The notes: generated by a model not told the origin, from the letters alone. A DNA stretch of 63,433 nt from an uncultured virus (IMG/VR IMGVR_UViG_3300043177_000093) (IMGVR_UViG_3300043177_000093:1-63433); one strand, 5' to 3'. Shown: positions 2,483 through 60,210, counted from the stretch's first letter. Numbers and translations are program-made.

Positions 2483-3382
2483 ATGGAGATTCTAGAAAAC
2501 ATGACAGAAACAATCAAATCGATTGAAGAAGAACTGGTCGAGGCCACAGGAACTACGAAGGAGGAGTCAGAATCCAGGAATAAGTACCTGAGCAGGCTGC
2601 TGCGGGCCTGTTCCAAGCTGCCGGATGAGATTTGGGAATCGTTGTCGAACGAGGCCCAACAATGGGTCAACGATGGCATTGAGGCCATGACCAGTAAGCT
2701 GGATATTCCAGAATTCCCGGGATCCGAGGCTGGGACGTTTGGCGGAGAGGGTGAGGATCCGGAAGAAATTGCAGCCGAGGTGACGGACGAGCCCGAAGAA
2801 GTCGAGGAAGTTCTTGCAGAAGCCGAGCCCGAGCCTATCCTGGCTCCTCCCGTCAAGAGGGGACCTGGACGGCCAAGGAAGAGCCCTCTGCTCCAGCAGC
2901 CAGCTCCTACTGCGCAGGTGGCTGAGGCTCCGGTCAAGCGGAAGCGGGGACGGCCTCGTAAGAACCCTCTGCCCGAGCAGTCAGTCCAACAACCGAAACA
3001 GGAGATCGTTGTACAAGAACCAGTCAAGCGGAAGCGTGGCAGACCGCCGAAGGTGGTTGCCCCGCAGCCTGTTGAAGAGCTTCCGAAGACTGGACCGCGT
3101 GCAGCTCCTCCTGAGCAAGAAGAACTGGACACAGCGGATACGAACAACGTACTCATCTTCAATCGCAGTCGGGACCGATCGACTACTGGCGGCCCTGAGT
3201 TCTACCGAGAGCTGGTTCTTGCACACCCAAATCTGACTCGGGATCAACTCCGAGCACATTGTGTCAAACAGGGCTACGAAATCCAACCTGGAACAGCAAA
3301 CTCAATCTATTACGAGGCAAGAAAACTACTGGAACTGTTGCAACGCAAGAAAATGTTGAGGCTCCCCCCCAAAGGAAACTGA
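2483..3382 (+). CDS. acidic, triple AT-hook DNA-binding protein (HMGA-like)
   Basis: KRGPGRPRK, KRKRGRPRK and KRKRGRPPK motifs after an E-rich tract; helical N- and C-terminal domains. Confidence 0.7.
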   Translation: MEILENMTETIKSIEEELVEATGTTKEESESRNKYLSRLLRACSKLPDEIWESLSNEAQQWVNDGIEAMTSKLDIPEFPGSEAGTFGGEGEDPEEIAAEVTDEPEEVEEVLAEAEPEPILAPPVKRGPGRPRKSPLLQQPAPTAQVAEAPVKRKRGRPRKNPLPEQSVQQPKQEIVVQEPVKRKRGRPPKVVAPQPVEELPKTGPRAAPPEQEELDTADTNNVLIFNRSRDRSTTGGPEFYRELVLAHPNLTRDQLRAHCVKQGYEIQPGTANSIYYEARKLLELLQRKKMLRLPPKGN

Positions 3383-3393
3383 CGGAACCCCTC

Positions 3394-3458
3394 GGGGACA
3401 GCGGAGTTTCCTCCTGAGAGAGGCATCTTTCAGGTTACTTTCTCCGCTGTCCCCCTTT
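3394..3458 (+). terminator. long stem-loop (terminator or processing hairpin)
   Basis: GGGGACAGCGGAG 3394-3406 pairs with CTCCGCTGTCCCC 3442-3454; inner CCTGAGAG/CTTTCAGG stem; only a short T run follows. Confidence 0.55.
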
Positions 3459-3476
3459 GCTCTCTAAAAACCAGAA

Positions 3477-3553
3477 CGCGGGTAACTCGACCAGAGAACA
3501 GAGGCGCGGCTCATAACCGCGTTAGCTTGGTGCGACTCCAAGGCCCGCTACCA
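3477..3553 (+). tRNA. tRNA-Met(CAT), initiator-like, atypical
   Basis: acceptor CGCGGGT/GCCCGCT with C1:U72 mismatch, A73 and encoded CCA; anticodon arm CGCGG-CTCATAA-CCGCG; T-arm CTTGG-TGCGACT-CCAAG; D-loop lacks GG. Confidence 0.8.
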
Positions 3554-3566
3554 GAACACGACTCAA

Positions 3567-3668
3567 GTGAGCTGGATGTTTTAGACCTCGGAGAAAACTC
3601 CGATGAGTGATTGACCCCCCTGACCAATGGTGGGGCCAACTCTAAAACAGAATCCATGCTCCACACCA
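3567..3668 (+). ncRNA. Y-RNA-like unit 0 with a two-hairpin apical domain
   Basis: GTGAGC/GCTCCAC terminal stem plus ACCA; TGTTTTAGA/TCTAAAACA upper stem; internal TCGGAG-AAAA-CTCCGA and TTGACCCC/GGGGCCAA hairpins. Confidence 0.6.
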
Positions 3669-3673
3669 ATCAC

Positions 3674-3733
3674 GGAGAGCCGAAGAAAGCCGGTCACAAG
3701 AAAGATCGACTTTCAGATCCAAGCTCTCCATCA
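3674..3733 (+). ncRNA. Y-RNA-like unit 1
   Basis: GGAGAGC/GCTCTCC 7-bp stem; GCCGAAG matches the bacterial Ro-binding GNCGAAN(0-1)G motif; upper stem GAAAGCCGGTC/GATCGACTTTC. Confidence 0.75.
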
Positions 3734-3738
3734 TCCAC

Positions 3739-3804
3739 GCTGGGCCGTATGATGTGGGTTATAGCTACACATAATCCCATATCAAAACTCCACGCTCAGC
3801 ACCA
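3739..3804 (+). ncRNA. Y-RNA-like unit 2
   Basis: GCTGGGC/GCTCAGC stem plus ACCA; GCCGTA; upper stem TGATGTGGG/CCCATATCA with GGTTA. Confidence 0.75.
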
Positions 3805-3809
3805 ATCAA

Positions 3810-3941
3810 GCCGAGCCGGATTGTGTTGGTTACCTCTTGGAAGGAGTGGTTGTTGGTTCGATTCCAACCTCCCCGACTAAACCGGGGAGTAGCTCAATTG
3901 GCAGAGCACTTACGCCAATGCAAAAATTACGCTCGGCGCCA
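3810..3941 (+). ncRNA. yrlA: YrlA-type Y RNA with a circularly permuted tRNA-like domain (unit 3)
   Basis: GCCGAGC/GCTCGGC stem plus GCCA; T-arm GTTGG-TTCGATT-CCAAC (3852-3868) precedes a loop-closed acceptor stem CTCCCCG/CGGGGAG (3869-3889) and D-arm GCTC-AATTGGCA-GAGC (3892-3907); lies upstream of a Ro60 gene. Confidence 0.9.
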
Positions 3942-3946
3942 ATCAC

Positions 3947-4014
3947 TGCGAGCCGGACGCGCGTGGGTTACACGACTAATGTATCCCCCACACGCACCAA
4001 CACGCTCGCAGCCA
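3947..4014 (+). ncRNA. Y-RNA-like unit 4
   Basis: TGCGAGC/GCTCGCA stem plus GCCA; GCCGGA; upper stem GCGCGTGGG/CCCACACGC with GGTTA. Confidence 0.75.
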
Positions 4015-4019
4015 ATCAC

Positions 4020-4082
4020 CCAGGGTCGGAGATGGTCGGTTATTATAGAATTACCCGATCATCGTCAACATACCCTGGACTA
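4020..4082 (+). ncRNA. Y-RNA-like unit 5
   Basis: CCAGGGT/ACCCTGG stem plus ACTA; GTCGGA; upper stem GATGGTCGG/CCGATCATC with GGTTA; ends just before the Ro60 ribosome-binding site. Confidence 0.7.
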
Positions 4083-4095
4083 CCTTGGAGGAGAA

Positions 4096-5739
4096 ATGCA
4101 GAAGTTTCATCAGTACGCTAACAAACTAGCTACCCCGCAATCCGATCAAGCCGATCCGAGGCAGGTCGAGAACTCGGCGGGAGGCTGGTCGTTCCAAGTA
4201 TCAAAGTGGTCTCAGTTGGATCGATTTCTGGTCCTTGGAACTGAGGGCGGCACTTATTATCTCACAGAAAAAGCTCTCACTCTTACCAACGTAAAGTCGG
4301 TAACCGCTTGCCTGGCTGAGGATCCAACCAGAACAATCAATCGGATTGTTGAAGTTTCACAGAACAGACTGGCTCCGAAGAACGATCCCGCAATCTTTGC
4401 GCTGGCTGTAGCATTCGGAGCCAAGCCTCAGGTTGGGCCTGAAGTCATGGAACAGGCCCTGTTGAAGGTGTGCCAGACTGGTACGGACATCCTGCACTTC
4501 TGTGAGTACGTCCAGAGTCAACTTGGTTGGGGTCGTACTCTGCGTAGAGCTGTGTCCCGCTGGTATGGCACGCGCAGTAGGTCTGTGGACGACCTGGCCT
4601 ATCAGCTCGTGAAATATCGCCAGCGTGACAACTGGGCTCAACGAGATGTTTTGCGTCTTGCGCACCCAGTATCCAGGGATCCTGTAAAGAGAGCAATCTT
4701 TGCCCTGGTGGCAGGCAAGTACGATGAGGCCCGATACCGAGAAGCCCTAGGAGAGAATCCATCTCCGAAGATGATCGAAGGCTATTTTGCAGCTAGCAAG
4801 GCGAAGACCGAGAAGGAGGTCGTCGAGGCCATCAAAACCTTCGGAATCACTAGGGAAATGGTGCCCACTGAACACCTGACTCCGAAGGTCTGGGGAGCGC
4901 TGCTGCACAAGATGCCTGTGATTGCTTCCATCAGAAATCTAGGCAATCTGTCGAAGCACGATCTTCTGAGCGAGCTGTCCGAAGGCGAGAAGAGTGTTCT
5001 GGAGCGGCTAAGTGAGCCCGTTCTCCAGAAGGCCAAGGTTCATCCTCTACAAGTCCTGAGTGCTCTATTGACCTATTCACAGGGTCATGGGACGCGCGGT
5101 TCCGGAACATGGAAAGTCAATTCCAGGATCGTCGATGCTCTGGATCGAGGTTTTGAGTATTGCTTCAAGAACGTAGAGCCGACCGGACTGCGTATTCAGG
5201 TAGCTCTGGACGTATCTGGATCGATGAGTTCAGGCACTGTTGGCGGTGTTTCTGGGCTGAGCCCTAGAATGGCGTCGGCGGCTCTGAGCATGATTTTTGC
5301 TCGTAGGGAGTCCAACTGCTACATCATGGCCTTCTCTGACAGGTTCATGCCTCTGAACATCGGACCGCGCCAGCGTCTTGATGATGTGGTTCAAGCCACT
5401 TCTCAGCTTCCTTTCATGAGAACGGACTGCTCTCTTCCAATGATCTGTGCTCTCCAGAAAAAGATCCCTACAGACCTGTTCATCGTCCTGACGGACAATG
5501 AGACCTGGGCTGGACAGATGCACCCATACCAAGCTCTGACCAAGTACCGAAACCAGATGAATATCAACTCGAAACTGGTGGTTGTCGGGATGACCGCCAA
5601 CAAGTTCACGATCGCGGTGCCTAATGATCCAGGAATGCTAGATGTGGTTGGATACTCCTCGGATATCCATCAGGTGATCACGTCTTTTGCCTCATTGCAA
5701 GAGAGGCAATCCTCGCGGCAGGGACCCCACTTAGCTTAG
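4096..5739 (+). CDS. rsr: Ro60/Rsr TROVE-vWA RNA-binding protein (547 aa)
   Basis: NSAGGWSF, RFLVLGTEGGTYY, GWGRTLRRAV, YQLVKYRQR..W..RDVLRLAHP, IRNLG, MIDAS DVSGSM, TDCSLPM, TDNETW, DPGMLDVVG; GGAGG 4087-4091 precedes ATG 4096 (the track start at 3823 lies inside the RNAs). Confidence 0.95.
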   Translation: MQKFHQYANKLATPQSDQADPRQVENSAGGWSFQVSKWSQLDRFLVLGTEGGTYYLTEKALTLTNVKSVTACLAEDPTRTINRIVEVSQNRLAPKNDPAIFALAVAFGAKPQVGPEVMEQALLKVCQTGTDILHFCEYVQSQLGWGRTLRRAVSRWYGTRSRSVDDLAYQLVKYRQRDNWAQRDVLRLAHPVSRDPVKRAIFALVAGKYDEARYREALGENPSPKMIEGYFAASKAKTEKEVVEAIKTFGITREMVPTEHLTPKVWGALLHKMPVIASIRNLGNLSKHDLLSELSEGEKSVLERLSEPVLQKAKVHPLQVLSALLTYSQGHGTRGSGTWKVNSRIVDALDRGFEYCFKNVEPTGLRIQVALDVSGSMSSGTVGGVSGLSPRMASAALSMIFARRESNCYIMAFSDRFMPLNIGPRQRLDDVVQATSQLPFMRTDCSLPMICALQKKIPTDLFIVLTDNETWAGQMHPYQALTKYRNQMNINSKLVVVGMTANKFTIAVPNDPGMLDVVGYSSDIHQVITSFASLQERQSSRQGPHLA

Positions 5740-5767
5740 CGCATAGGCTGAGTGGGGTCCCGTTTTT
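5721..5767 (+). terminator. intrinsic terminator after rsr
   Basis: GGGACCCCACTTAGC/GCTGAGTGGGGTCCC stem followed by GTTTTT. Confidence 0.75.
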
Positions 5768-5779
5768 CTGAGGTGACAG

Positions 5780-6046
5780 ATGGAAAAGAAAACAATCCGA
5801 GAGACACTACTCTTCTGTGATACTGCACGCGGAGACCATGTTCGTGTGTGGTTCCACTATGGGCCTTTTGTGCAAGCCAACATGACAGCAGTAAAGCAAG
5901 CTGCCAGCATCATCTGCGATCCTAACATGACGCTGAGGGATGTGGCTGATCATCTTGCAAAGTTTTCTGGCGTGAATGCTGTTGAGGCTCGTCCAAATGG
6001 CTTAGACGAAGAAACCGCCGAACTCACCTATAACGACTGGCCATGA
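5780..6046 (+). CDS. hypothetical protein
   Basis: 88 aa, GAGGTG ribosome-binding site. Confidence 0.55.
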   Translation: MEKKTIRETLLFCDTARGDHVRVWFHYGPFVQANMTAVKQAASIICDPNMTLRDVADHLAKFSGVNAVEARPNGLDEETAELTYNDWP

Positions 6047-6231: not shown

Positions 6232-8685
6232 ATGATCCTGACTCGGGAAGAAGAGGAGAGCGGGATCTCCAGTCAGAAGATCAATCCTGCTGCGCTCCAC
6301 CCAGATATGGAGCCCACGGGGTCTAATAGCCCACAACTCTATGTTCTCGGGGAGGCGCCAGGATTATCGGAGGATCTGAAAGGCGTTCAATTTATTGGCA
6401 AGAGTGGCCAATTTCTCCGTGCTCAGTTTCCAATCAAGTTCAAAGAGCACATTCGCTTCAACAATTGCTGTCGAACTCGTCCACCAGAAAACCGAACTCC
6501 GACACAAGAAGAGGTCGATTTCTACAGACAGTCAATCATTGAGGATATAGAAGTCACAAAGCCACAAGCTGTACTGCTTGCTGGAGCAATTCCTCTGGCT
6601 TGGGCACTTCCTGGAATAGGAACTATCGAGGTTTGCCGGGGACGGCGCTTTCCTCTGAGGATCGGAAGGCATCCTACTTGGGTCTATCCTGTTCACCATC
6701 CCAGCTTCATTCTTCGGATCGAACGGTCTCGTTCTGGAGGCATCACAGGATTAGAATGGAAACGTGCATTTTTTAGAGACATAAAACGGGTTTTCTGTGA
6801 TCTCAAAGATGGAATTGGTCCTCCAAAGTTTTCCGATCCCAGTCCAGTTAGAAGACTGCTGACAGAGGCCGAAGTCTTAGAAGCAGTCAAGGAATTCAGC
6901 AACAAGGCAATCTTTGCTTTTGACCTGGAGACATCCTGTTTGCGGCCACAATCGGCCAATGCTAATCTGTTGTCTATTGGACTTTCTGATGGCGAGTCTA
7001 CGGTAGCCTTTCCAATAGATCATTTTGCTCATGTATGGCCTAGAACGAGCAGAACTGCAATCAGGAATGCTTTGCGCTATCTATTTCTAGAGTCGAAGGC
7101 ATCCAAGATTGCTCACAATCTCGCCTTTGACCTGGAGTGGGTTCTAGAAGAGCTTGAAATCCCTCATGCTCATAATGTCAGATGGCATGACACTCAAGCA
7201 ATGGCCTTCCTGCTTGATGAGCGAGAAGGTGGCCATAATCTGGACTTCGTTTCCAGACTTGTGCTAGGCTATTCAACCAAGGGTCTGACCAAGATCAACG
7301 TAAAGAAGATCGAGGAGGCTCCTCTAGAAACTCTTCTAGAATACAATGGTCTAGATGCTCAGAGCACTTGCAGGATTTTTGAGAAGCTGACTGATAGAAT
7401 TGTAGATGAGAATCTAACTGAGATATACAAGGAGCACATCAAGCGGATTCCTACAGCAGTCCAAGCACAGAGAGTTGGGATGCTTGTTGATCCCGAGCGC
7501 GTGAAGTTCTTCCAAAAAGATATCGGAGACCGACTCAGGGCAGTCAAAGAGCAAATCACAACAAGTAACGAGGCTAAACGCTTCGAGAAGAAGTTCGGAA
7601 GAGAGTTTTCTCCAACATCTAACCCTAGATTAGTGCTGATGTTCCGTGATCTTCTAAAAAGAAAAGAAGGGCAACGCGGAACAAAATATAGCACCGACGA
7701 GGAAGCCTTAGCTCTGATGAAGGATGAACCGCTAGCCGAACTGATCCTAGAGATGAGAAGGCTGGCTAAGCTGAAAAGCACTTACGTAGATGTGCTTGAT
7801 CCAGGCCACAAGAAAACCGTTGTGTTTCCAGATGGAAGGATTCATCCACAATTCAACACCCTGAAAACAAGAACAGGGCGTCTTTCATCTTCCAACTGGA
7901 ATGCACAGAATGTTCCTAGACGAAAGAACGCAGAGATCCGATCTCAGATCATTGCGGATCCTGATTGTGTGCTGATCGCATCGGACCAAGGACAACTAGA
8001 AGCCCGGGTGATCGCTGCGGCATCTGGTGATAAATTCCTGATGGAGTCCATCAAAAATGGCTGGGACATCCACCGCGACTGGGCTGAGCGAGTTGCCAAA
8101 CTCGCTCCTGCTGTATTTCAGAGACGGGGGGCAAATATCGAAGTTTTTCGTGATGAAATCAAGAACGAGCTTGTGTTCCCAGCATTCTACGGAAGCCAAC
8201 CAGATGCCATAGCCAGCCGACTAGAGCTGACCAGTGGCCAGGCAAATAGGATTTTTCAGGACTTCTGGAAGTGCTTTCCTGGAGTCCGAGTGTGGCAGAG
8301 GAGCTTGTTGGAGTTCTATTATGAGCATGGGTACGTCAAGTCCCCAACTGGCAGACACTATCGAGCGCCACTCTCCGAGAACATGATTCTGAACTACGGA
8401 ATTCAAGGAAGTGCCAGTGACATCGTGGTTGACGCCATGAACCGACTGTGCAGGATTGCCGACCTGGAAGGCCCTTCCTATCTGAAGCCGGTGCTGAACG
8501 TGCATGATGACTTGACTTTCATCGTTCCCAAGAGGAAGGTGGAGAACGCAATGGAAGTCATTGTTAGGGAAATGTTAGCCTATGACGGGGCTTGGCTAAC
8601 CGTCCCGCTTGAGGTAAAAATCTCGGTGGGTCCCAATTGGCACGAGGTCAAGACTATTGGAAAATTCTCCAGTGCCTTGATCTGA
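6232..8685 (+). CDS. polA: family A DNA polymerase with N-terminal family-4 UDG-like domain (SPO1-like architecture)
   Basis: UDG motifs GEAPG, FIGKSG, RPPENRTP, HPS; exonuclease FDLET, HNLAFD, YNGLD; polymerase TGRLSS, DQGQLEARV, K....F...YG, VHDD. Confidence 0.92.
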   Translation: MILTREEEESGISSQKINPAALHPDMEPTGSNSPQLYVLGEAPGLSEDLKGVQFIGKSGQFLRAQFPIKFKEHIRFNNCCRTRPPENRTPTQEEVDFYRQSIIEDIEVTKPQAVLLAGAIPLAWALPGIGTIEVCRGRRFPLRIGRHPTWVYPVHHPSFILRIERSRSGGITGLEWKRAFFRDIKRVFCDLKDGIGPPKFSDPSPVRRLLTEAEVLEAVKEFSNKAIFAFDLETSCLRPQSANANLLSIGLSDGESTVAFPIDHFAHVWPRTSRTAIRNALRYLFLESKASKIAHNLAFDLEWVLEELEIPHAHNVRWHDTQAMAFLLDEREGGHNLDFVSRLVLGYSTKGLTKINVKKIEEAPLETLLEYNGLDAQSTCRIFEKLTDRIVDENLTEIYKEHIKRIPTAVQAQRVGMLVDPERVKFFQKDIGDRLRAVKEQITTSNEAKRFEKKFGREFSPTSNPRLVLMFRDLLKRKEGQRGTKYSTDEEALALMKDEPLAELILEMRRLAKLKSTYVDVLDPGHKKTVVFPDGRIHPQFNTLKTRTGRLSSSNWNAQNVPRRKNAEIRSQIIADPDCVLIASDQGQLEARVIAAASGDKFLMESIKNGWDIHRDWAERVAKLAPAVFQRRGANIEVFRDEIKNELVFPAFYGSQPDAIASRLELTSGQANRIFQDFWKCFPGVRVWQRSLLEFYYEHGYVKSPTGRHYRAPLSENMILNYGIQGSASDIVVDAMNRLCRIADLEGPSYLKPVLNVHDDLTFIVPKRKVENAMEVIVREMLAYDGAWLTVPLEVKISVGPNWHEVKTIGKFSSALI

Positions 8686-50205: not shown

Positions 50206-50471
50206 GCCTTTTCTGAGTGAATCCCTATACCGACAAGCTGATGCAAAGAACCATCACACTCAGAGCAGTAAGTAGCACCAGCAACGTCCCAGAGAATCTT
50301 ATCAACATTTTCTGCTGGAACAAGATGAAGCACACCAGAACAATTGAAGGACAAAGCCGAACAACTGCCAGATCCTGGCGTTGATGGGAGATATGTTATA
50401 GAAAGATGGTTGGCACTGTACCTAGACCCATCTTTCGTCAGCACAGTTATAGAAGAACGAATCATGGCCAT
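50202..50471 (-). CDS. hypothetical protein
   Basis: 89 aa, overlaps both neighbours. Confidence 0.4.
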   Translation of the reverse strand: MAMIRSSITVLTKDGSRYSANHLSITYLPSTPGSGSCSALSFNCSGVLHLVPAENVDKILWDVAGATYCSECDGSLHQLVGIGIHSEKA

Positions 50472-52918
50472 GTAGGAGTAAGGGTTGTCCAGTCAGTGTA
50501 CCCAACTGCTTTTCCATGAGGCGCAGGCTGGATCTGTGGCAAGTTCAATCCCGGATAAATTCTGTTCACCACCCAACTCTGCCAGCGATCATCTGACCCA
50601 TTTACAGCGTCATTAGGTGGTTGCCCATGCACAAAAGTTGCCCAATAATAAGCCCGCCGAATTGCTTGAGCTGACCATTGCCAAACATCCGGGTAGCCAT
50701 GCCGAGCAAGCAGAATTGCTTGAGCCTGGACCCCTTGTAGCCCTTCGTAGACATAGTTTGTTTTAGCAGCGTAGTTGTCTGGAAAGCTGCCACTTCTTCG
50801 TTGATCATCAGGCAGCACACCACCAATATCCAAACCCTGCTTTGTGCCTGATGGATTTATACCAACTGGCCTGGATTCATCTAGCTGCCAAGATAATTCA
50901 CCATAAGAGAAGCCACTATAGACAGAACGGTCTCCGAGGTAGCCTCGAAAAACTTCAGCGGCTCTAGCAAGATCAATATTATCACCAAGATATACTGCTG
51001 CTGCAATACGGGATGCTCCTGCATGAGTGCCCCAGTTGTTGGGTCGATCTTCGTGTGTAGAAATCAAGGTTCGACCATCCAGAATCTCTGTACGCACAGC
51101 AGCAAGCCAAGATCGGAAAGAGACATCCGAGAGCCCAATCAGATCAGCCGCCAGCACCAGGCACAAAAGATTTCGACCAAGAGCAAGGGTGCGCCCACCG
51201 TTTTCGGTCTCCATTGCATTCAGAATGGTCGAGCGAACAAAAGCAGCACGAGCTGCGTCTCCAGTCCGGGCTGCCACGAGGGCAGCCGCCAACAGATTTG
51301 AGTCATCCTGCTCGTCCTGGTCCGATAGGTTGATCGGGCCAAGGACATTTGCGTCACTAAGAAGCTCATTCCAGGCTGCCCCCGTTGTCGGTAGGAGAGC
51401 CAACTCATCCGGATCAATCCAGATTCCAGTTGAGGTCGGAGGAGGACTCGTGGGGGGACGGATACCTCGCCCTGGGGAGATCGGACTCCCAGCTTGGGGT
51501 ATGGGCTCTACAGGCACCTCGACAGCATGAGTCTCGGTGTCGCTGCCATCAGCTCCAACCACCAGCAGTGAGACCGTGTAGCGGCCCGGTGCTGGATACA
51601 GGTGCCCTGTCTGCTCACCGAGCCCTCCAGTGCCGTCTCCGAAATCCCAAATCCAACCAGAGACATCTCCAATTGAGCATCGAGCATCGAACGCAATGTG
51701 GGTGTAGTTTGTTCTCTCAGCAGTGAAACAGGCTACCGGAGGAGCGGTCGTATCATTTTTTGTGATAGAAAATCCATCTCTGGTTGTGCCATCCTGATCG
51801 ACAAAAAAGCCACGAATCTCATTCGGAGTCACATCTACATATGAAAATCCAGCAACATTCCCAATTCCAATCGCCATCAGAGGATGGTCCAGATCACCTG
51901 AACCGGTTTTGCCTGCGCACCCTGAGACAACGTAGACCGCTCCCTCTGGAGGATTCGTATAGTCACTAGGATTTGTCTGAACGATAGCACTTGCTCGCAC
52001 CAAGTAACTACGCTCGTAATTGTGGCTGTGCCCGACCAACACTAGATCGACCAGCTGCGCATCAAACAACGGGACCAAGTTCTGACGCAAAGTTCTCAGC
52101 TCGCTCTCAGCATCTGAATCGTGAGTGCCATGAGAGTAAACTGGGTGGTGCATGAAAACGATGCGCCACCGAGAATCTTGGGCAGCAATCAGATCATCCT
52201 CAGCCCACTGCCACATCGCGCCAGAAGGAGAACTGGAGCTGCTTTCAGAATCTAGACAAACAAAGTGGACCATTCCATAGTCGAAGCTGTAGTAACGCTC
52301 TGTATTGCTAGGATGCCCTGGACCACCCGTAGTTGTTGGAAGATAGAAAGCATCGTAAAATGGAGCCCCATTGCTCGTACTGGCATCGTGATTTCCGAGC
52401 GTCGGCCAGAACGTCATGCGTGGAAGCATGTCCTTGTACGGCGTGAAGAGCTTGGGATCGAAATCTGCTGCTGCCCCGCTTTCGTAGACCAGATCGCCGA
52501 GGCCCAGTGCGAAGTGGACATCCGAAACCAGCTCCATTCGGTCTGCAACCGCATACTGAGTAGAGTTTCCAGTTCCACTGTCACCAAAGGCCAAAAATCG
52601 AAAAGGCCGACCATCACCCAGACCAGGATGCGTTCGTAGGACCCCAGATCCAAGTCCAGGCTCGATCGTGTATGGGTAGGCTGTGCCTGAAGTCAATCCG
52701 GACACAGAAAAGACGTGCTGAGTCCCACTAGGACTGGAGATTGTCTGCCCACCAATATGCAGCTGAGCTGAGGTGGCGGTGTCCGTACGACAGACCACCA
52801 GCCCACCATCGTTGTCCGTAGATTGAATATAAGGACCACGAGTTACAACTGGAGGAAGACTCATCCATGCGATGGCGAGCAGAGCAACAGTCATAACAAA
52901 TAGAATCTTCTTGCTCAT
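50462..52918 (-). CDS. secreted purple-acid-phosphatase + PKD + alginate-lyase-like fusion
   Basis: signal/TM, RGPY.Q, FGDSG, GDLVY, GNHD, HHP.Y, GHSH.YER; PKD WDFGDG..H.Y..PG.YTV.L; Pro linker; RPNNWG lyase-like domain. Confidence 0.75.
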   Translation of the reverse strand: MSKKILFVMTVALLAIAWMSLPPVVTRGPYIQSTDNDGGLVVCRTDTATSAQLHIGGQTISSPSGTQHVFSVSGLTSGTAYPYTIEPGLGSGVLRTHPGLGDGRPFRFLAFGDSGTGNSTQYAVADRMELVSDVHFALGLGDLVYESGAAADFDPKLFTPYKDMLPRMTFWPTLGNHDASTSNGAPFYDAFYLPTTTGGPGHPSNTERYYSFDYGMVHFVCLDSESSSSSPSGAMWQWAEDDLIAAQDSRWRIVFMHHPVYSHGTHDSDAESELRTLRQNLVPLFDAQLVDLVLVGHSHNYERSYLVRASAIVQTNPSDYTNPPEGAVYVVSGCAGKTGSGDLDHPLMAIGIGNVAGFSYVDVTPNEIRGFFVDQDGTTRDGFSITKNDTTAPPVACFTAERTNYTHIAFDARCSIGDVSGWIWDFGDGTGGLGEQTGHLYPAPGRYTVSLLVVGADGSDTETHAVEVPVEPIPQAGSPISPGRGIRPPTSPPPTSTGIWIDPDELALLPTTGAAWNELLSDANVLGPINLSDQDEQDDSNLLAAALVAARTGDAARAAFVRSTILNAMETENGGRTLALGRNLLCLVLAADLIGLSDVSFRSWLAAVRTEILDGRTLISTHEDRPNNWGTHAGASRIAAAVYLGDNIDLARAAEVFRGYLGDRSVYSGFSYGELSWQLDESRPVGINPSGTKQGLDIGGVLPDDQRRSGSFPDNYAAKTNYVYEGLQGVQAQAILLARHGYPDVWQWSAQAIRRAYYWATFVHGQPPNDAVNGSDDRWQSWVVNRIYPGLNLPQIQPAPHGKAVGYTDWTTLTPTWP

Positions 52919-58853: not shown

Positions 58854-60062
58854 TTACGGTCTCGCCTCGAACTCGTCCAGTGCCGCACGCAGTGCAGCTT
58901 CCTGCGCCGGCCAAAGCCCCATCACGTTCGTCGTCTCGCCCGGGTCGAGCAGCAGGTCGAACAACTCCTCGGTCAGTGGAGGTGCTGCCATCGGTCCCGT
59001 CCTGCGCAGCTTGAACCGCTGCCCGCGCGCGCAGCGGTCGTAGTGCCCGAGGTCGTCGTTCTCCGTGCCGCACACCACGTTCGCGTGCCCGACGCCGAAA
59101 AGCTGGAGCCCGTCAATCCCAGGTGGCGGCGCGACGCCGAACCAGAGTGCGACCGTCGGCAGCACATCTACGATGTGCGAGAGCCTGTCGCAGCCACCTC
59201 CGGACAGCCCGGGGCCTGCAACAATCAACGGAACGTGGATCCCACGCTCGAATGTCGTGGTCTTCGAGCGCTCTGGGTCAGGACTCACCTGGATTGGCGT
59301 GCCGTTATCCCCGACGAAGATCACGCCGTCTACATCGAGGTCGATGCCGGCGAGGCACTGGGCAACCCACGAGTCGAGCGCCGCAATCATCGCCTGGTAC
59401 TTCGTCGGCTTGTCAGGCGTCGGTGGGTAGCCAGGAGGCAACCACTCGGCCGGCGGCCGGTGGAACGGCCCGTGCGCGAGCTGCGGGGCGAGCACGATCA
59501 GCCTCCCGCTCCCGGGCGGCAGCGCAAGCGCCACGTCCCGCGTTGCAGCCGGCTCGTACTGGGAGGAGACCTGAGCGATCCCGTCGTCCACGCGCATCCA
59601 GTTCGTATAGCTAGGGATCCCGAACATGATGCACTCGCTGACGTTGCTCGGCTGACCAGCCTTCCAGCCGTCGAAACCGTGTGCGTAGGGCGGTGAGTTG
59701 CCGCCGGTCGGGTCTCCCCCGAGGTGCCACTTCCCAATCAGGTACGAGGGGACCGCCGGTGCCATCTCCGCAATCGAGGTGAGTGTGAGGTCCGGCTCCT
59801 TCCCCGTCAGCCCGTCCCCGGGGCACCAGGATCCAGCCTCGCCGACGGCGTAGAGCCCAAAGAAGAGAGACCGGCGCGACGGGGAGCAGACCGGGTTCGC
59901 GTAGGCGCGCGTGAACGTGACGCCGTGCGCTGCGAGCACGTCGATGTTCGGCGTGAGGCCGAGCACGCTAGCGTCCTGAAGGTCCTGGTAGCCCACGTCG
60001 TCGGCAACGATGACGTAGAGGTCGCCCTGGGCGATGGCGAGGAGGAGGGATACAAGGATCAT
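58854..60062 (-). CDS. arylsulfatase-family (formylglycine-type) sulfatase
   Basis: ADDVG, TPNID.LA..G..F..AY, CSPSR, GKWHLG, H.P.H, DNG, E.G.HVPL, D..PT, ELFDL..DPGE..N; signal MILVSLLLAIAQG; ATG 60062. Confidence 0.85.
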   Translation of the reverse strand: MILVSLLLAIAQGDLYVIVADDVGYQDLQDASVLGLTPNIDVLAAHGVTFTRAYANPVCSPSRRSLFFGLYAVGEAGSWCPGDGLTGKEPDLTLTSIAEMAPAVPSYLIGKWHLGGDPTGGNSPPYAHGFDGWKAGQPSNVSECIMFGIPSYTNWMRVDDGIAQVSSQYEPAATRDVALALPPGSGRLIVLAPQLAHGPFHRPPAEWLPPGYPPTPDKPTKYQAMIAALDSWVAQCLAGIDLDVDGVIFVGDNGTPIQVSPDPERSKTTTFERGIHVPLIVAGPGLSGGGCDRLSHIVDVLPTVALWFGVAPPPGIDGLQLFGVGHANVVCGTENDDLGHYDRCARGQRFKLRRTGPMAAPPLTEELFDLLLDPGETTNVMGLWPAQEAALRAALDEFEARP

Positions 60063-60210
60063 GCTGCACCCCAACGCATGTAGAGCGGACCGATGGCGAT
60101 GAATCGGCTTGGGGCTCCGGTCGTCGTCCACCACTGCGGACGATGCCATCTACGCCACGAGAGGCCGATGAGCGGTAGCTTAGATTCTGATGAGCGCGGA
60201 CAGAAGAGGA

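What the first reader, a model, noticed from the sequence alone, without database searches (positions are those of the whole stretch)
3658..4082. Every Y-like unit ends like a tRNA acceptor arm (7-bp stem + N-CCA) with an invariant 9-nt spacer
Seen: after each 3' stem strand come ACCA (3665), ATCA (3730), ACCA (3801), GCCA (3938), GCCA (4011) and ACTA (4079). Each is followed by 5 nt (ATCAC, TCCAC, ATCAA, ATCAC, ATCAC) before the next 5' strand, so all five junctions are exactly 9 nt, consensus RCCAATCAC. Known: 7 bp plus discriminator plus CCA is the acceptor-arm geometry read by RNase P, 3' tRNA-trimming nucleases, CCA-adding enzyme and aminoacyl-tRNA synthetases (minihelix substrates). Inference: the polycistron is cut into units by host tRNA-maturation enzymes, and the Y RNAs might even be aminoacylated. 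This would be an array-processing logic that parallels CRISPR arrays without being one.
Basis: partly seen in the sequence, partly recalled or inferred. Interest (0 to 1): 0.78.

Follow-up and report, generated by a model that had tools for sequence, protein, structure and literature searches.

The report
Phage Y-RNA array with tRNA-like ends
A phage carries six small Ro60-partner (Y-like) RNAs in a row, and their ends and the short conserved linkers between them look like the ends of tRNA genes, so the host's tRNA-trimming enzymes may cut them apart, though nothing here shows that directly.

Summary
The strings and coordinates are right. Five units (U1-U5) have exactly 7 contiguous terminal base pairs. 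All five inter-unit junctions are 9 nt (RCCAAUCAC). "Every unit" is overstated, though. Exact NCCA follows 4 of 6 units, and U0's stem is interrupted, so only U2-U4 have both a 7-bp stem and NCCA.

The locus is a phage operon: a degenerate tRNA-Met(CAU)-like leader ending in ACCA, six Y-like RNAs (U3 is YrlA-like), a Ro60 (TROVE+vWA) gene, and a strong terminator.

The junction is as conserved as the Ro60-binding core (76% vs 80% pairwise identity). Other parts of the units are 37-48% identical. The junctions are predicted to be unpaired.

The geometry is not a family trait. Among 174 Y-like units called in 172 other Ro60 loci, one has 7 bp + NCCA, which equals the shuffled control. A motif-free scan found the same tandem geometry only here and in a genuine tRNA gene cluster.

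Best reading (about 0.45): a lineage-specific tRNA-operon-style design. RNase P would cut at +1, 3' trimming would stop at CCA, and the CCA-adding enzyme could repair the ends. Aminoacylation is unsupported. No RNA data and no close relatives exist. This is a new variant of a known kind.

The parts
3394..3455 (+). Long hairpin just after the stop of the upstream ORF (2483-3382). It may be a terminator or processing hairpin ahead of the RNA array.
   Evidence: the fold of 3358-3478 has z -4.3. One search lists its inner part (3413-3434) as terminator-like. Its function is inferred.
3477..3553 (+). Degenerate tRNA-Met(CAU)-like leader. It has a CUCAUAA anticodon loop, a C1xU72 mismatch, A73 plus encoded CCA (3550-3553), a poor D arm and a non-canonical T loop.
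   Evidence: ARAGORN calls it only at relaxed thresholds, not at default. Rfam gave no tRNA match at E<=10.
3567..3668 (+). U0, a divergent Y-like unit. Its terminal stem is interrupted (3 bp, bulge, 3 bp, bulge, 5 bp) and is followed by ACCA.
   Evidence: z -4.9. It lacks the GNCG and GGUYAY motifs (sequence).
3674..3733 (+). U1, a small Y-like unit. It has a 7-bp stem GGAGAGC/GCUCUCC and the motif GCCGAAG (an exact GNCGAAN0-1G). Its tail is AUCA, one mismatch from NCCA.
   Evidence: (z -5.35).
3739..3804 (+). U2, a small Y-like unit with a 7-bp stem, a bulged C, GGUUAU, and tail ACCA.
   Evidence: (z -4.5).
3810..3941 (+). U3, the YrlA-like unit. It has a 7-bp terminal stem. Its internal tRNA-like domain has a T arm, a 7-bp AS stem CUCCCCG/CGGGGAG with loop ACUAAAC, and a D arm. 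Its tail is GCCA.
   Evidence: Rfam YrlA scores 43 bits, E 5.7e-8, below the gathering score of 69.
3947..4014 (+). U4, a small Y-like unit with a 7-bp stem (8 bp if C-1:G73 pairs) and tail GCCA.
4020..4082 (+). U5, a small Y-like unit with a 7-bp stem. Its tail is ACUA, one mismatch from NCCA. The Shine-Dalgarno sequence GGAGGAG and the Ro60 ATG follow directly.
3665..4019 (+). Five 9-nt junctions at 3665-3673, 3730-3738, 3801-3809, 3938-3946 and 4011-4019, consensus RCCAAUCAC.
   Evidence: Gap-free alignment. Pairwise identity 0.76 and P(unpaired) 0.77-0.94, against 0.41 overall. Repeat family D1.
4096..5739 (+). Ro60/Rsr orthologue, 547 aa.
   Evidence: Pfam TROVE 1.4e-37 and vWA_Ro60 1.6e-61. 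It is 40-49% identical to phage and bacterial Ro60 proteins.
5721..5771 (+). Strong intrinsic-terminator-like hairpin (18 pairs) with a U-tract, overlapping the Ro60 stop codon. It is the likely end of the transcription unit.

Best explanation
The region 3477-5771 is one phage transcription unit. It holds a tRNA-like leader, six Ro60-partner (Y-like) RNAs, the Ro60 mRNA and a terminator.

In this lineage the Ro60-binding lower stem of each Y unit is exactly 7 bp. It is followed by a purine, then CCA (or a one-off variant), then a conserved 5-nt linker. Each junction therefore looks like the boundary between two tRNA genes that encode their CCA.

Proposed mechanism (inferred, not shown):
- Host RNase P cuts at position +1 of each unit, using the 7-bp helix and the single-stranded RCCA.
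- The 5-nt trailer left on the upstream unit is removed by 3'-5' exonucleases, which stop at the CCA next to the helix.
- The two non-CCA tails (AUCA, ACUA), and the ACUA in U3's internal loop, could be trimmed and completed by the CCA-adding enzyme.

The result would be Y RNAs with short, nuclease-resistant, repairable 3' ends that then bind the phage Ro60.

Shown: the anatomy, the conservation and the unpaired state of the junctions. Inferred: every enzymatic step.
For: 1. Geometry. U1-U5 have 7 contiguous pairs with changes on both sides at positions 1, 2, 3 and 7. The tails are A/G-CCA in 4 of 6 units and one mismatch away in the other 2. All six discriminator positions are purines.
2. The 9-nt junction is as conserved as the Ro-binding core (0.76 vs 0.80). 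Other segments are 0.37-0.48, so a neutral duplication remnant is unlikely.
3. In a fold of the whole array each unit stays an independent module. The junctions have P(unpaired) 0.77-0.94, against 0.41 overall.
4. A tRNA-Met(CAU)-like element with encoded ACCA heads the same strand.
5. U3 has a 7-bp internal acceptor-like stem. Chen et al. 2014 report that the 7-bp stem of M. smegmatis YrlA is cut by RNase P and receives CCA, and that YrlA and YrlB come from one precursor (PMC4201824, passages).
6. I ran a motif-free scan for three or more tandem '7 bp + NCCA + 3-8 nt' units over 346 strand scans. It found only this array and L062:4977-5319. ARAGORN calls four tRNAs in that L062 stretch.
7. 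E. coli valV-valW, with a 4-nt non-AU-rich spacer, is separated by RNase P alone, and its 3' ends are trimmed by exonucleases (PMC2190699, abstract and passages).
8. Context. In 68 of 172 other Ro60 loci, 464 of 472 ARAGORN tRNAs lie on the Ro60 strand. In all 10 hand-picked tRNA-to-Y adjacencies I examined, the called Y-like stem starts between 1 nt inside and 3 nt after the called tRNA 3' end. Y RNA ends set by tRNA processing are therefore plausible in general.
Against: 1. The geometry is not conserved among available homologues. 7 bp + NCCA occurs in 1 of 174 units, or 2 of 270 at a looser threshold. The shuffled controls give 1 of 56 and 2 of 161.
2. Other Y units mostly have stems of 8-15 bp and A/U-rich tails.
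3. Two of six tails are not CCA, and U0's stem is interrupted.
4. The AUCAC linker is conserved as strongly as RCCA. Acceptor mimicry does not explain that.
5. The small units have no T arm or elbow, and position -1 is C or A rather than U.
6. Ro60 binding to the same stem could compete with the processing enzymes.
7. The host is unknown, so its RNase P type and CCA usage are unknown.
8. There is no RNA evidence. Only two DNA runs hold the sequence.
9. There is no close relative. The best Ro60 identity is 49%.
10. My unit finder makes many chance calls: 56 'units' in shuffled data against 174 in real data.
Confidence: 0.45

Rival explanations
1. The 9-nt junction RCCAAUCAC is a lineage-specific, sequence-specific site. 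It would be recognised by an endonuclease (RNase E/G/Y-type or phage-encoded) or by a binding protein. The CCA inside it is incidental, not tRNA mimicry.
For: - Both halves of the 9-mer are equally conserved.
- Other Y arrays have their own junction motifs. L020 has CGCTAGACT in 3 junctions, L070 has ACAAGGTCT in 2, and L018, L028 and L086 have U-rich 7-9-nt spacers. Junction signals therefore appear to differ by lineage.
- 9 nt is also the commonest junction length elsewhere, 6 of 46.
Against: - It does not explain why the stem is exactly 7 bp in 5 of 5 canonical units, when other Y units show no excess of 7-bp stems over shuffles.
- It does not explain the purine at all 6 discriminator positions.
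- It does not explain the tRNA-like leader ending in ACCA.
- It does not explain why the only other hit of the motif-free scan is a tRNA cluster.
Confidence: 0.3
2. The junction has no function. The array arose by tandem duplication, and the junction plus stem bases are kept alike by gene conversion or recent ancestry.
For: The units are paralogues, and the repeat finder sees a 30-nt repeat family across the junctions with 63-100% identity.
Against: - Unit bodies and outer stem positions have diverged to 37-48% identity, with compensatory pair changes. The spacer stays at 76%.
- Junction length is invariant at 9 nt, while unit lengths range from 56 to 128 nt.
Confidence: 0.12
3. The CCA ends are used beyond processing. 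The Y units might be aminoacylated, or they might act as acceptor-end decoys for enzymes or defence toxins that act on tRNA 3'-CCA ends.
For: There is only the geometry (7 bp + RCCA) and the copy number (six units). Chen et al. 2014 raise possible aminoacylation for RNase P-cleaved M. smegmatis YrlA. The existence of CCA-targeting toxins is recalled from memory and was not tested here.
Against: - No unit has G3:U70 (read).
- The small units have no anticodon or T-arm mimic.
- Two units lack CCA.
- No aminoacyl-tRNA-related or toxin-related gene turned up among the 28 ORFs scanned.
Confidence: 0.05

Closest known systems
Bacterial and phage Y RNAs next to Ro60/Rsr (YrlA/YrlB of M. smegmatis and S. 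Typhimurium; Chen et al. 2014, PMC4201824; sections 5, 6, 8 and passages read)
   Same: - The units lie on the same strand just upstream of Ro60.
- A 5'/3' stem carries the GNCGAA-like motif, with YUAY after it.
- One unit has a T/AS/D tRNA-like domain.
- Several Y RNAs come from one precursor.
- A 7-bp acceptor-like stem is cut by RNase P and given CCA in M. smegmatis.
   Different: - There, the acceptor mimic is the internal AS stem of YrlA. Here the terminal Ro-binding stem of every unit has the acceptor geometry, with CCA encoded.
- There are six units rather than two.
- Rfam YrlA scores only 43 bits against a gathering score of 69.
E. coli polycistronic tRNA operons separated by RNase P alone (valV-valW, leuQPV; Mohanty & Kushner 2007, PMC2190699; abstract and passages read)
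   Same: - Tandem units end in encoded CCA.
- Spacers are very short and not AU-rich (4 nt there, 5 nt after CCA here).
- The proposed order is the same: an RNase P cut at +1, then exonucleolytic 3' trimming.
   Different: - The units here are not tRNAs. The small units have no D/T elbow.
- The linker sequence is conserved.
- Processing here is only inferred.
Thermus phage phiLo Yrl1/Yrl2 upstream of phiRo60 (PMC12135203; abstract and passages read)
   Same: Phage-encoded Ro60 with Y-like RNAs directly upstream. They were identified by the CGAA motif and a stem-bulge-stem fold.
   Different: There are two units there. 'CCA' occurs 0 times in that paper's main text. Its supplements were not seen.
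Non-tRNA RNase P substrates with an acceptor-like stem plus CCA, such as the phage P1/P7 C4 antisense RNA precursor, tmRNA and 4.5S RNA (recalled, not checked in any call)
   Same: A helix followed by a single-stranded CCA-like 3' end directs RNase P to mature a small RNA.
   Different: Those are single RNAs, not tandem arrays, and are unrelated to Ro60.
CRISPR arrays
   Same: A roughly 30-nt conserved element recurs between variable segments, and a long precursor is presumably cut into units.
   Different: - The 'repeat' is one unit's 3' strand, the linker and the next unit's 5' strand.
- The variable parts are conserved-fold Y RNAs, not spacers.
- The spacing is irregular: 65, 71, 137, 73.
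- None of the 28 ORFs scanned matched a Cas family.

Membership tests
Ro60-associated Y RNA (bacterial/phage, YrlA/YrlB-like) | Encoded within about 4 kb of a Ro60 orthologue on the same strand | tested here: met
   The units lie at 3567-4082 (+). The Ro60 ORF is at 4096-5739 (+) and carries TROVE and vWA_Ro60 domains.
Ro60-associated Y RNA (bacterial/phage, YrlA/YrlB-like) | 5' and 3' ends pair into a stem that carries the GNCGAAN0-1G-type motif near the 5' end (bulged C), with YUAY downstream | tested here: met
   U1 has GCCGAAG, an exact match. U2-U5 have GNCG(G/U)A. GGUYAY lies 8-11 nt further on. The folds show the bulged C followed by 2 bp. U0 lacks both motifs.
Ro60-associated Y RNA (bacterial/phage, YrlA/YrlB-like) | Match to a curated covariance model (Rfam YrlA RF02553, Y_RNA, sbRNA) | tested here: inconclusive
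   U3 scores 43 bits against YrlA, E 5.7e-8, below the gathering score of 69. The small units match no Rfam family at E<=10.
Ro60-associated Y RNA (bacterial/phage, YrlA/YrlB-like) | Physical binding to Ro60 | not testable with these tools
   This needs co-immunoprecipitation or a gel-shift assay.
tRNA-type acceptor end (substrate of RNase P, 3' trimming, CCA-adding enzyme) | 7-bp helix, then an unpaired discriminator, then CCA | tested here: inconclusive
   Fully met by U2, U3 and U4. U0 has ACCA but an interrupted stem. U1 (AUCA) and U5 (ACUA) miss by one base.
tRNA-type acceptor end (substrate of RNase P, 3' trimming, CCA-adding enzyme) | Acceptor helix stacked on a T arm with a D/T elbow | tested here: not met
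   The small units have no T loop. U3 has T and D arms, but they flank its internal AS stem, not the terminal stem.
tRNA-type acceptor end (substrate of RNase P, 3' trimming, CCA-adding enzyme) | Feature conserved in homologous Y arrays | tested here: not met
   1 of 174 units (FuzzBuster Y2, L012:2316-2383) has 7 bp + NCCA. The shuffled control gives 1 of 56. No close relative is available.
tRNA-type acceptor end (substrate of RNase P, 3' trimming, CCA-adding enzyme) | Actual cleavage at +1, an end at CCA, or aminoacylation | not testable with these tools
   No RNA run holds the sequence.
CRISPR array | Near-identical direct repeats of 23-50 nt at regular spacing, with unrelated spacers and (usually) cas genes | tested here: not met
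   The 30-nt repeats are 63-100% identical, with spacing 65, 71, 137, 73. The intervening parts share a fold and motifs. No Cas family appeared among the 28 ORFs scanned.

The most novel reading that the evidence does not exclude
In this phage lineage the Ro60-binding stems of a whole Y-RNA array have been remodelled into tRNA acceptor minihelices with encoded RCCA. The host tRNA machinery (RNase P, 3' exonucleases, CCA-adding enzyme) would then cut, finish and keep repairing six non-tRNA RNAs. This would be the first ncRNA array matured entirely by tRNA end-processing. Its CCA ends might further serve as decoys or substrates for enzymes that act on tRNA 3' ends.
Probability: 0.35. Interest if true: 0.65.

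Novelty: new variant of a known kind. Interest (0 to 1): 0.5.

Why it matters
How bacterial and phage Y RNAs get their ends is poorly described. In what I read, Chen et al. 2014 say that YrlA and YrlB derive from one precursor and that an internal stem is cut by RNase P.

If the terminal stems here are true RNase P and CCA substrates, tRNA mimicry by Y RNAs would extend from the internal domain to the ends of the molecule. That would explain how a phage can make six stable small RNAs from one transcript without a nuclease of its own. It would also give a compact, testable design rule (7 bp + RCCA + 5 nt) for tRNA-independent use of the tRNA maturation machinery.

The wider survey also links Ro60 and Y RNAs physically to tRNA arrays. 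That bears on the open question of what Ro60 does in bacteria and phages.

Tried and rejected
- **RNA evidence.** The look-up of sequencing runs listed no RNA holder. It listed only two freshwater DNA runs. Laying them gave identical contigs, with no variants, ends or joints.
- **Close relatives.**
  - The Ro60 protein alone, searched in IMG/VR and in metagenome contigs, gave at most 46% identity over near-full-length matches. Only two short C-terminal fragments scored higher (57% and 61%).
  - An alignment query gave at most 49% identity in IMG/VR and GTDB genomes.
  - blastn of 3300-5800 against GenBank phages hit only Ro60 coding sequence at about 70%.
- **Pattern scan of IMG/VR.** The pattern was CCAATCA..GNCG..GGTYAY. 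All were single matches that looked like chance or coding sequence, with no NCCA-tailed stem. The pattern was too degenerate, and the scan was wasted.
- **MAFFT alignment of whole small units**. It did not keep the 3' ends in register, so I built no covariance model. I used a regex-plus-pairing finder instead, and its shuffled control shows a high chance-call rate.
- **Rfam at gathering threshold.** It found nothing in the window and no YrlA in 20 other array loci.
- **Papers not held.** The reviews by Sim & Wolin 2018 and Sim et al. 2020 were not held. Supplements of Chen et al. 2014 (phage YrlA tables and alignments) were not seen and may bear on Y RNA ends.
- **Prior reports.** I found no paper describing terminal-stem acceptor mimicry of Y RNAs. 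I did not search for non-tRNA RNase P substrates, so that comparison rests on recall.
- **U0 as a tracr-like guide.** U0's GUGAUUG (3607-3613) is complementary to CAAUCAC in the junctions. I considered and set aside this idea, because 7 bp is too short for RNase III-type processing and the match is post hoc.

Full report
**What is there**

The window is a 63,433-base IMG/VR virus record, estimated at about 68% complete. It encodes tailed-phage proteins, including a major head protein and a scaffold protein. It also has a replication and recombination module: a PolA with a UDG domain, a gp32-like protein, a RecA-like protein, a PDDEXK nuclease and an SbcCD-like pair.

The ORF at 4096-5739 (+) is a Ro60/Rsr orthologue. 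Pfam gives TROVE at 1.4e-37 and vWA_Ro60 at 1.6e-61. An 18-pair terminator-like hairpin with a U-tract overlaps its stop codon.

Six structured units lie directly upstream on the same strand:

| Unit | Coordinates |
|---|---|
| U0 | 3567-3664 |
| U1 | 3674-3729 |
| U2 | 3739-3800 |
| U3 | 3810-3937 |
| U4 | 3947-4010 |
| U5 | 4020-4078 |

- Each unit folds far better than its shuffles: z -3.3 to -5.4, with 0 of 200 shuffles as good.
- U1-U5 carry the motifs that Chen et al. 2014 describe for bacterial Y RNAs. These are GNCGAAN0-1G near the 5' end, and YUAY (PMC4201824, sections 5 and 6). U1 has GCCGAAG. U2-U5 have GNCG(G/U)A followed by GGUYAY.
- U3 matches Rfam YrlA at 43 bits, E 5.7e-8, below the gathering score of 69. 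It has canonical-looking T and D arms around a 7-bp stem, CUCCCCG/CGGGGAG.
- U0 lacks both motifs and is a divergent member.
- ARAGORN at relaxed thresholds calls 3477-3553 a tRNA-Met(CAU)-like element. It has a C1xU72 mismatch, A73 and encoded CCA, but a poor D arm. Default ARAGORN and Rfam do not call it.

**Checking the observation**

U1-U5 have 7 contiguous pairs, with changes on both sides at stem positions 1, 2, 3 and 7.

The statement is too broad in two ways:
- U0's stem is interrupted: 3 bp, a bulge, then 3 bp.
- NCCA is exact in only 4 of 6 units.

So U2-U4 are the only units with both features. U4 can also form an 8th pair, C(-1):G73.

**Is it more than chance or duplication?**

- Mean pairwise identity of the 9-nt junction is 0.76. 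The Ro-binding core is 0.80. The outer stem positions are 0.48, and two non-motif segments are 0.37-0.41.
- In an MFE and partition-function fold of 3477-4100, every unit remains a separate module. The junctions have mean P(unpaired) 0.77-0.94, against 0.41 overall.
- Four of the six exact RCCAATCAM matches in the window lie in the array.

A junction this conserved, of fixed length, between bodies this diverged argues for selection on the junction.

**Comparison with other Ro60 loci**

No close relative exists. Full-length Ro60 identity is at most 49%. I collected 172 other Ro60 loci:
- 3 GenBank phages
- 81 IMG/VR loci
- 8 metagenome contigs
- 80 GTDB genome contigs

I scanned them with a regex-plus-pairing finder.

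Tandem Y-like arrays upstream of Ro60 are common. Examples are five units in L018, six in L020 and five in L028.

- At the stricter threshold I called 174 non-redundant units in 81 loci. Stem lengths measured from the bulged C ran from 7 to 21 bp, mostly 8-10. One unit had 7 bp + NCCA: FuzzBuster Y2 at L012:2316-2383.
- The shuffled control matters here. It still yields 56 'units', one of them with 7 bp + NCCA. At a looser threshold the counts are 270 real against 161 shuffled, with 2 hits each. There is no excess of 7-bp stems over shuffles.
- About a third of my calls may therefore be chance. Even so, the conclusion holds: 7 bp + NCCA is not a family trait.
- The tails of the closest Ro60 relatives are mostly A/U-rich.
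- Junction lengths in other arrays range from 1 to 36 nt, with 9 nt the mode at 6 of 46. Some arrays have junction motifs of their own.

I also ran a motif-free scan for three or more tandem '7 bp + NCCA + 3-8 nt' units, on both strands of 173 sources. It found only the window's array (U2-U4) and L062:4977-5319. ARAGORN calls four tRNAs in that stretch of L062.

**Mechanism**

The best-supported reading is that this lineage has given its Y units tRNA-gene-like boundaries.

Established facts that bear on it:
- E. coli tRNA precursors with encoded CCA are cut by RNase E 1-3 nt after CCA, or are separated by RNase P alone when the spacer is short and not AU-rich (valV-valW, 4 nt). Exonucleases then trim the 3' end (PMC2190699).
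- M. smegmatis YrlA, which has a 7-bp acceptor-like stem, is cut by RNase P in vitro and in vivo and acquires CCA. YrlA RNAs with shorter stems were not seen to be cut (PMC4201824).

By analogy, RNase P would cut at +1 of each unit. The 5-nt trailer would be trimmed back to CCA. AUCA and ACUA could be completed by the CCA-adding enzyme. U3's internal loop reads ACUAAAC, which has the same layout in miniature. All of these steps are inferred.

Several points weigh against it:
- The linker AUCAC is as conserved as RCCA.
- The small units have no elbow.
- Position -1 is C or A.
- Ro60 binds the same stem.
- The host is unknown.

I give this reading 0.45. A sequence-specific junction site unrelated to tRNA enzymes gets 0.30. 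A functionless duplication legacy gets 0.12. Uses beyond processing, such as aminoacylation or decoy action, get 0.05. On aminoacylation, no unit has G3:U70 (read).

**Context supporting a tRNA link in general**

- In 68 of 172 other Ro60 loci, ARAGORN finds tRNA genes, and 464 of 472 are on the Ro60 strand.
- There are 19 non-redundant cases where a tRNA ends at most 30 nt before a Y 5' motif. Seven of them are tRNA-His.
- In all 10 hand-picked adjacencies I examined, the called Y-like stem starts between 1 nt inside and 3 nt after the called tRNA 3' end.

**Comparison with known systems**

This is a member of the Ro60-associated Y RNA kind by position, motifs and fold. It is not a member by any curated model threshold.

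- It works most like a polycistronic tRNA operon with encoded CCA.
- It differs from published YrlA tRNA mimicry, because the mimicry is at the terminal stem of every unit.
- It is not a CRISPR array.

I found no paper describing this in the searches. Two reviews were not held, and supplements were closed.

**Verdict**

It is a new variant of a known kind, with interest 0.5.

Noticed in passing
window 3477-3553 (+): A degenerate tRNA-Met(CAU)-like element heads the array. It has an initiator-like 1:72 mismatch (CxU), a CUCAUAA anticodon loop, A73 and encoded CCA. ARAGORN calls it only at relaxed thresholds. The string ACCAGAAC occurs both just before it (3470-3477) and at its end (3550-3557).
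   Followed up: partly
window 3607-3613 versus junctions 3667-3673, 3940-3946, 4013-4019: U0 has an internal GUGAUUG that is largely unpaired in the MFE fold. It is complementary to CAAUCAC in three junctions, and over 6 nt to a fourth (3803-3808, CAAUCA). I made only a rough chance estimate (about 3% for a 7-mer in about 520 nt), and the match is post hoc and unexplained.
   Followed up: no
L094-L173 and several IMG/VR loci (e.g. L021, L117, L132, L148): Ro60 genes are often embedded in large same-strand tRNA gene arrays. 68 of 172 loci have tRNAs, and 464 of 472 of those tRNAs are on the Ro60 strand. Myxococcota and Chloroflexota MAGs are prominent among them. tRNA-His is often the last tRNA before the Y units, and tRNA-Asn is often the first after Ro60.
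   Followed up: partly
L110:298-439, L146:4004-4158, L148:4466-4666, L173:1829-1966, L114:3707-3906: In these loci the called Y-like stem starts between 1 nt inside and 3 nt after the 3' end of a same-strand tRNA, which is often an encoded CCA. Maturation of the tRNA 3' end would therefore create the Y RNA 5' end.
   Followed up: partly
L114:3804-3833; also L094:2940-3109, L124:3957-4170, L141:3670-3800: Some Y-like RNAs next to Ro60 in Myxococcota carry a loop segment, ACCGUAACUAUAACGGNCCUAAGGUAGCGA. Its L114 copy is about 97% identical to E. coli 23S rRNA positions 1907-1937. I recall that region as helix 69 and its neighbourhood. These may be rRNA-mimic Y RNAs. The listing of my one search showed no paper on this.
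   Followed up: partly
L020:1270-1900, L070, L018, L028, L086: Other Y arrays have their own conserved junction motifs. L020 has CGCTAGACT in three junctions, L070 has ACAAGGTCT in two, and L018, L028 and L086 have U-rich 7-9-nt spacers. L028's first three inter-unit gaps, as called, are 9 nt.
   Followed up: partly
L044:1687-1760, L074:3958-4025, L001:5962-6030: Small Y-like units near phage Ro60 genes match Rfam RF01656 (nematode sRNA ceN72-3_ceN74-2). Two score at or just above the gathering score, and L001 scores 34.6 against 38. I recall that family as the stem-bulge RNAs, which are Y RNA homologues.
   Followed up: no
window 6232-8685 (+): The DNA polymerase A ORF has an N-terminal uracil-DNA-glycosylase-superfamily domain ahead of its 3'-5' exonuclease and polymerase domains.
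   Followed up: no
window 50462-52918 (-) and 58854-60149 (-): One large ORF combines a metallophosphoesterase domain, a PKD domain and a weak alginate-lyase-like match. Another ORF is sulfatase-family. These are unusual phage cargo and may hint at the host's envelope or habitat.
   Followed up: no
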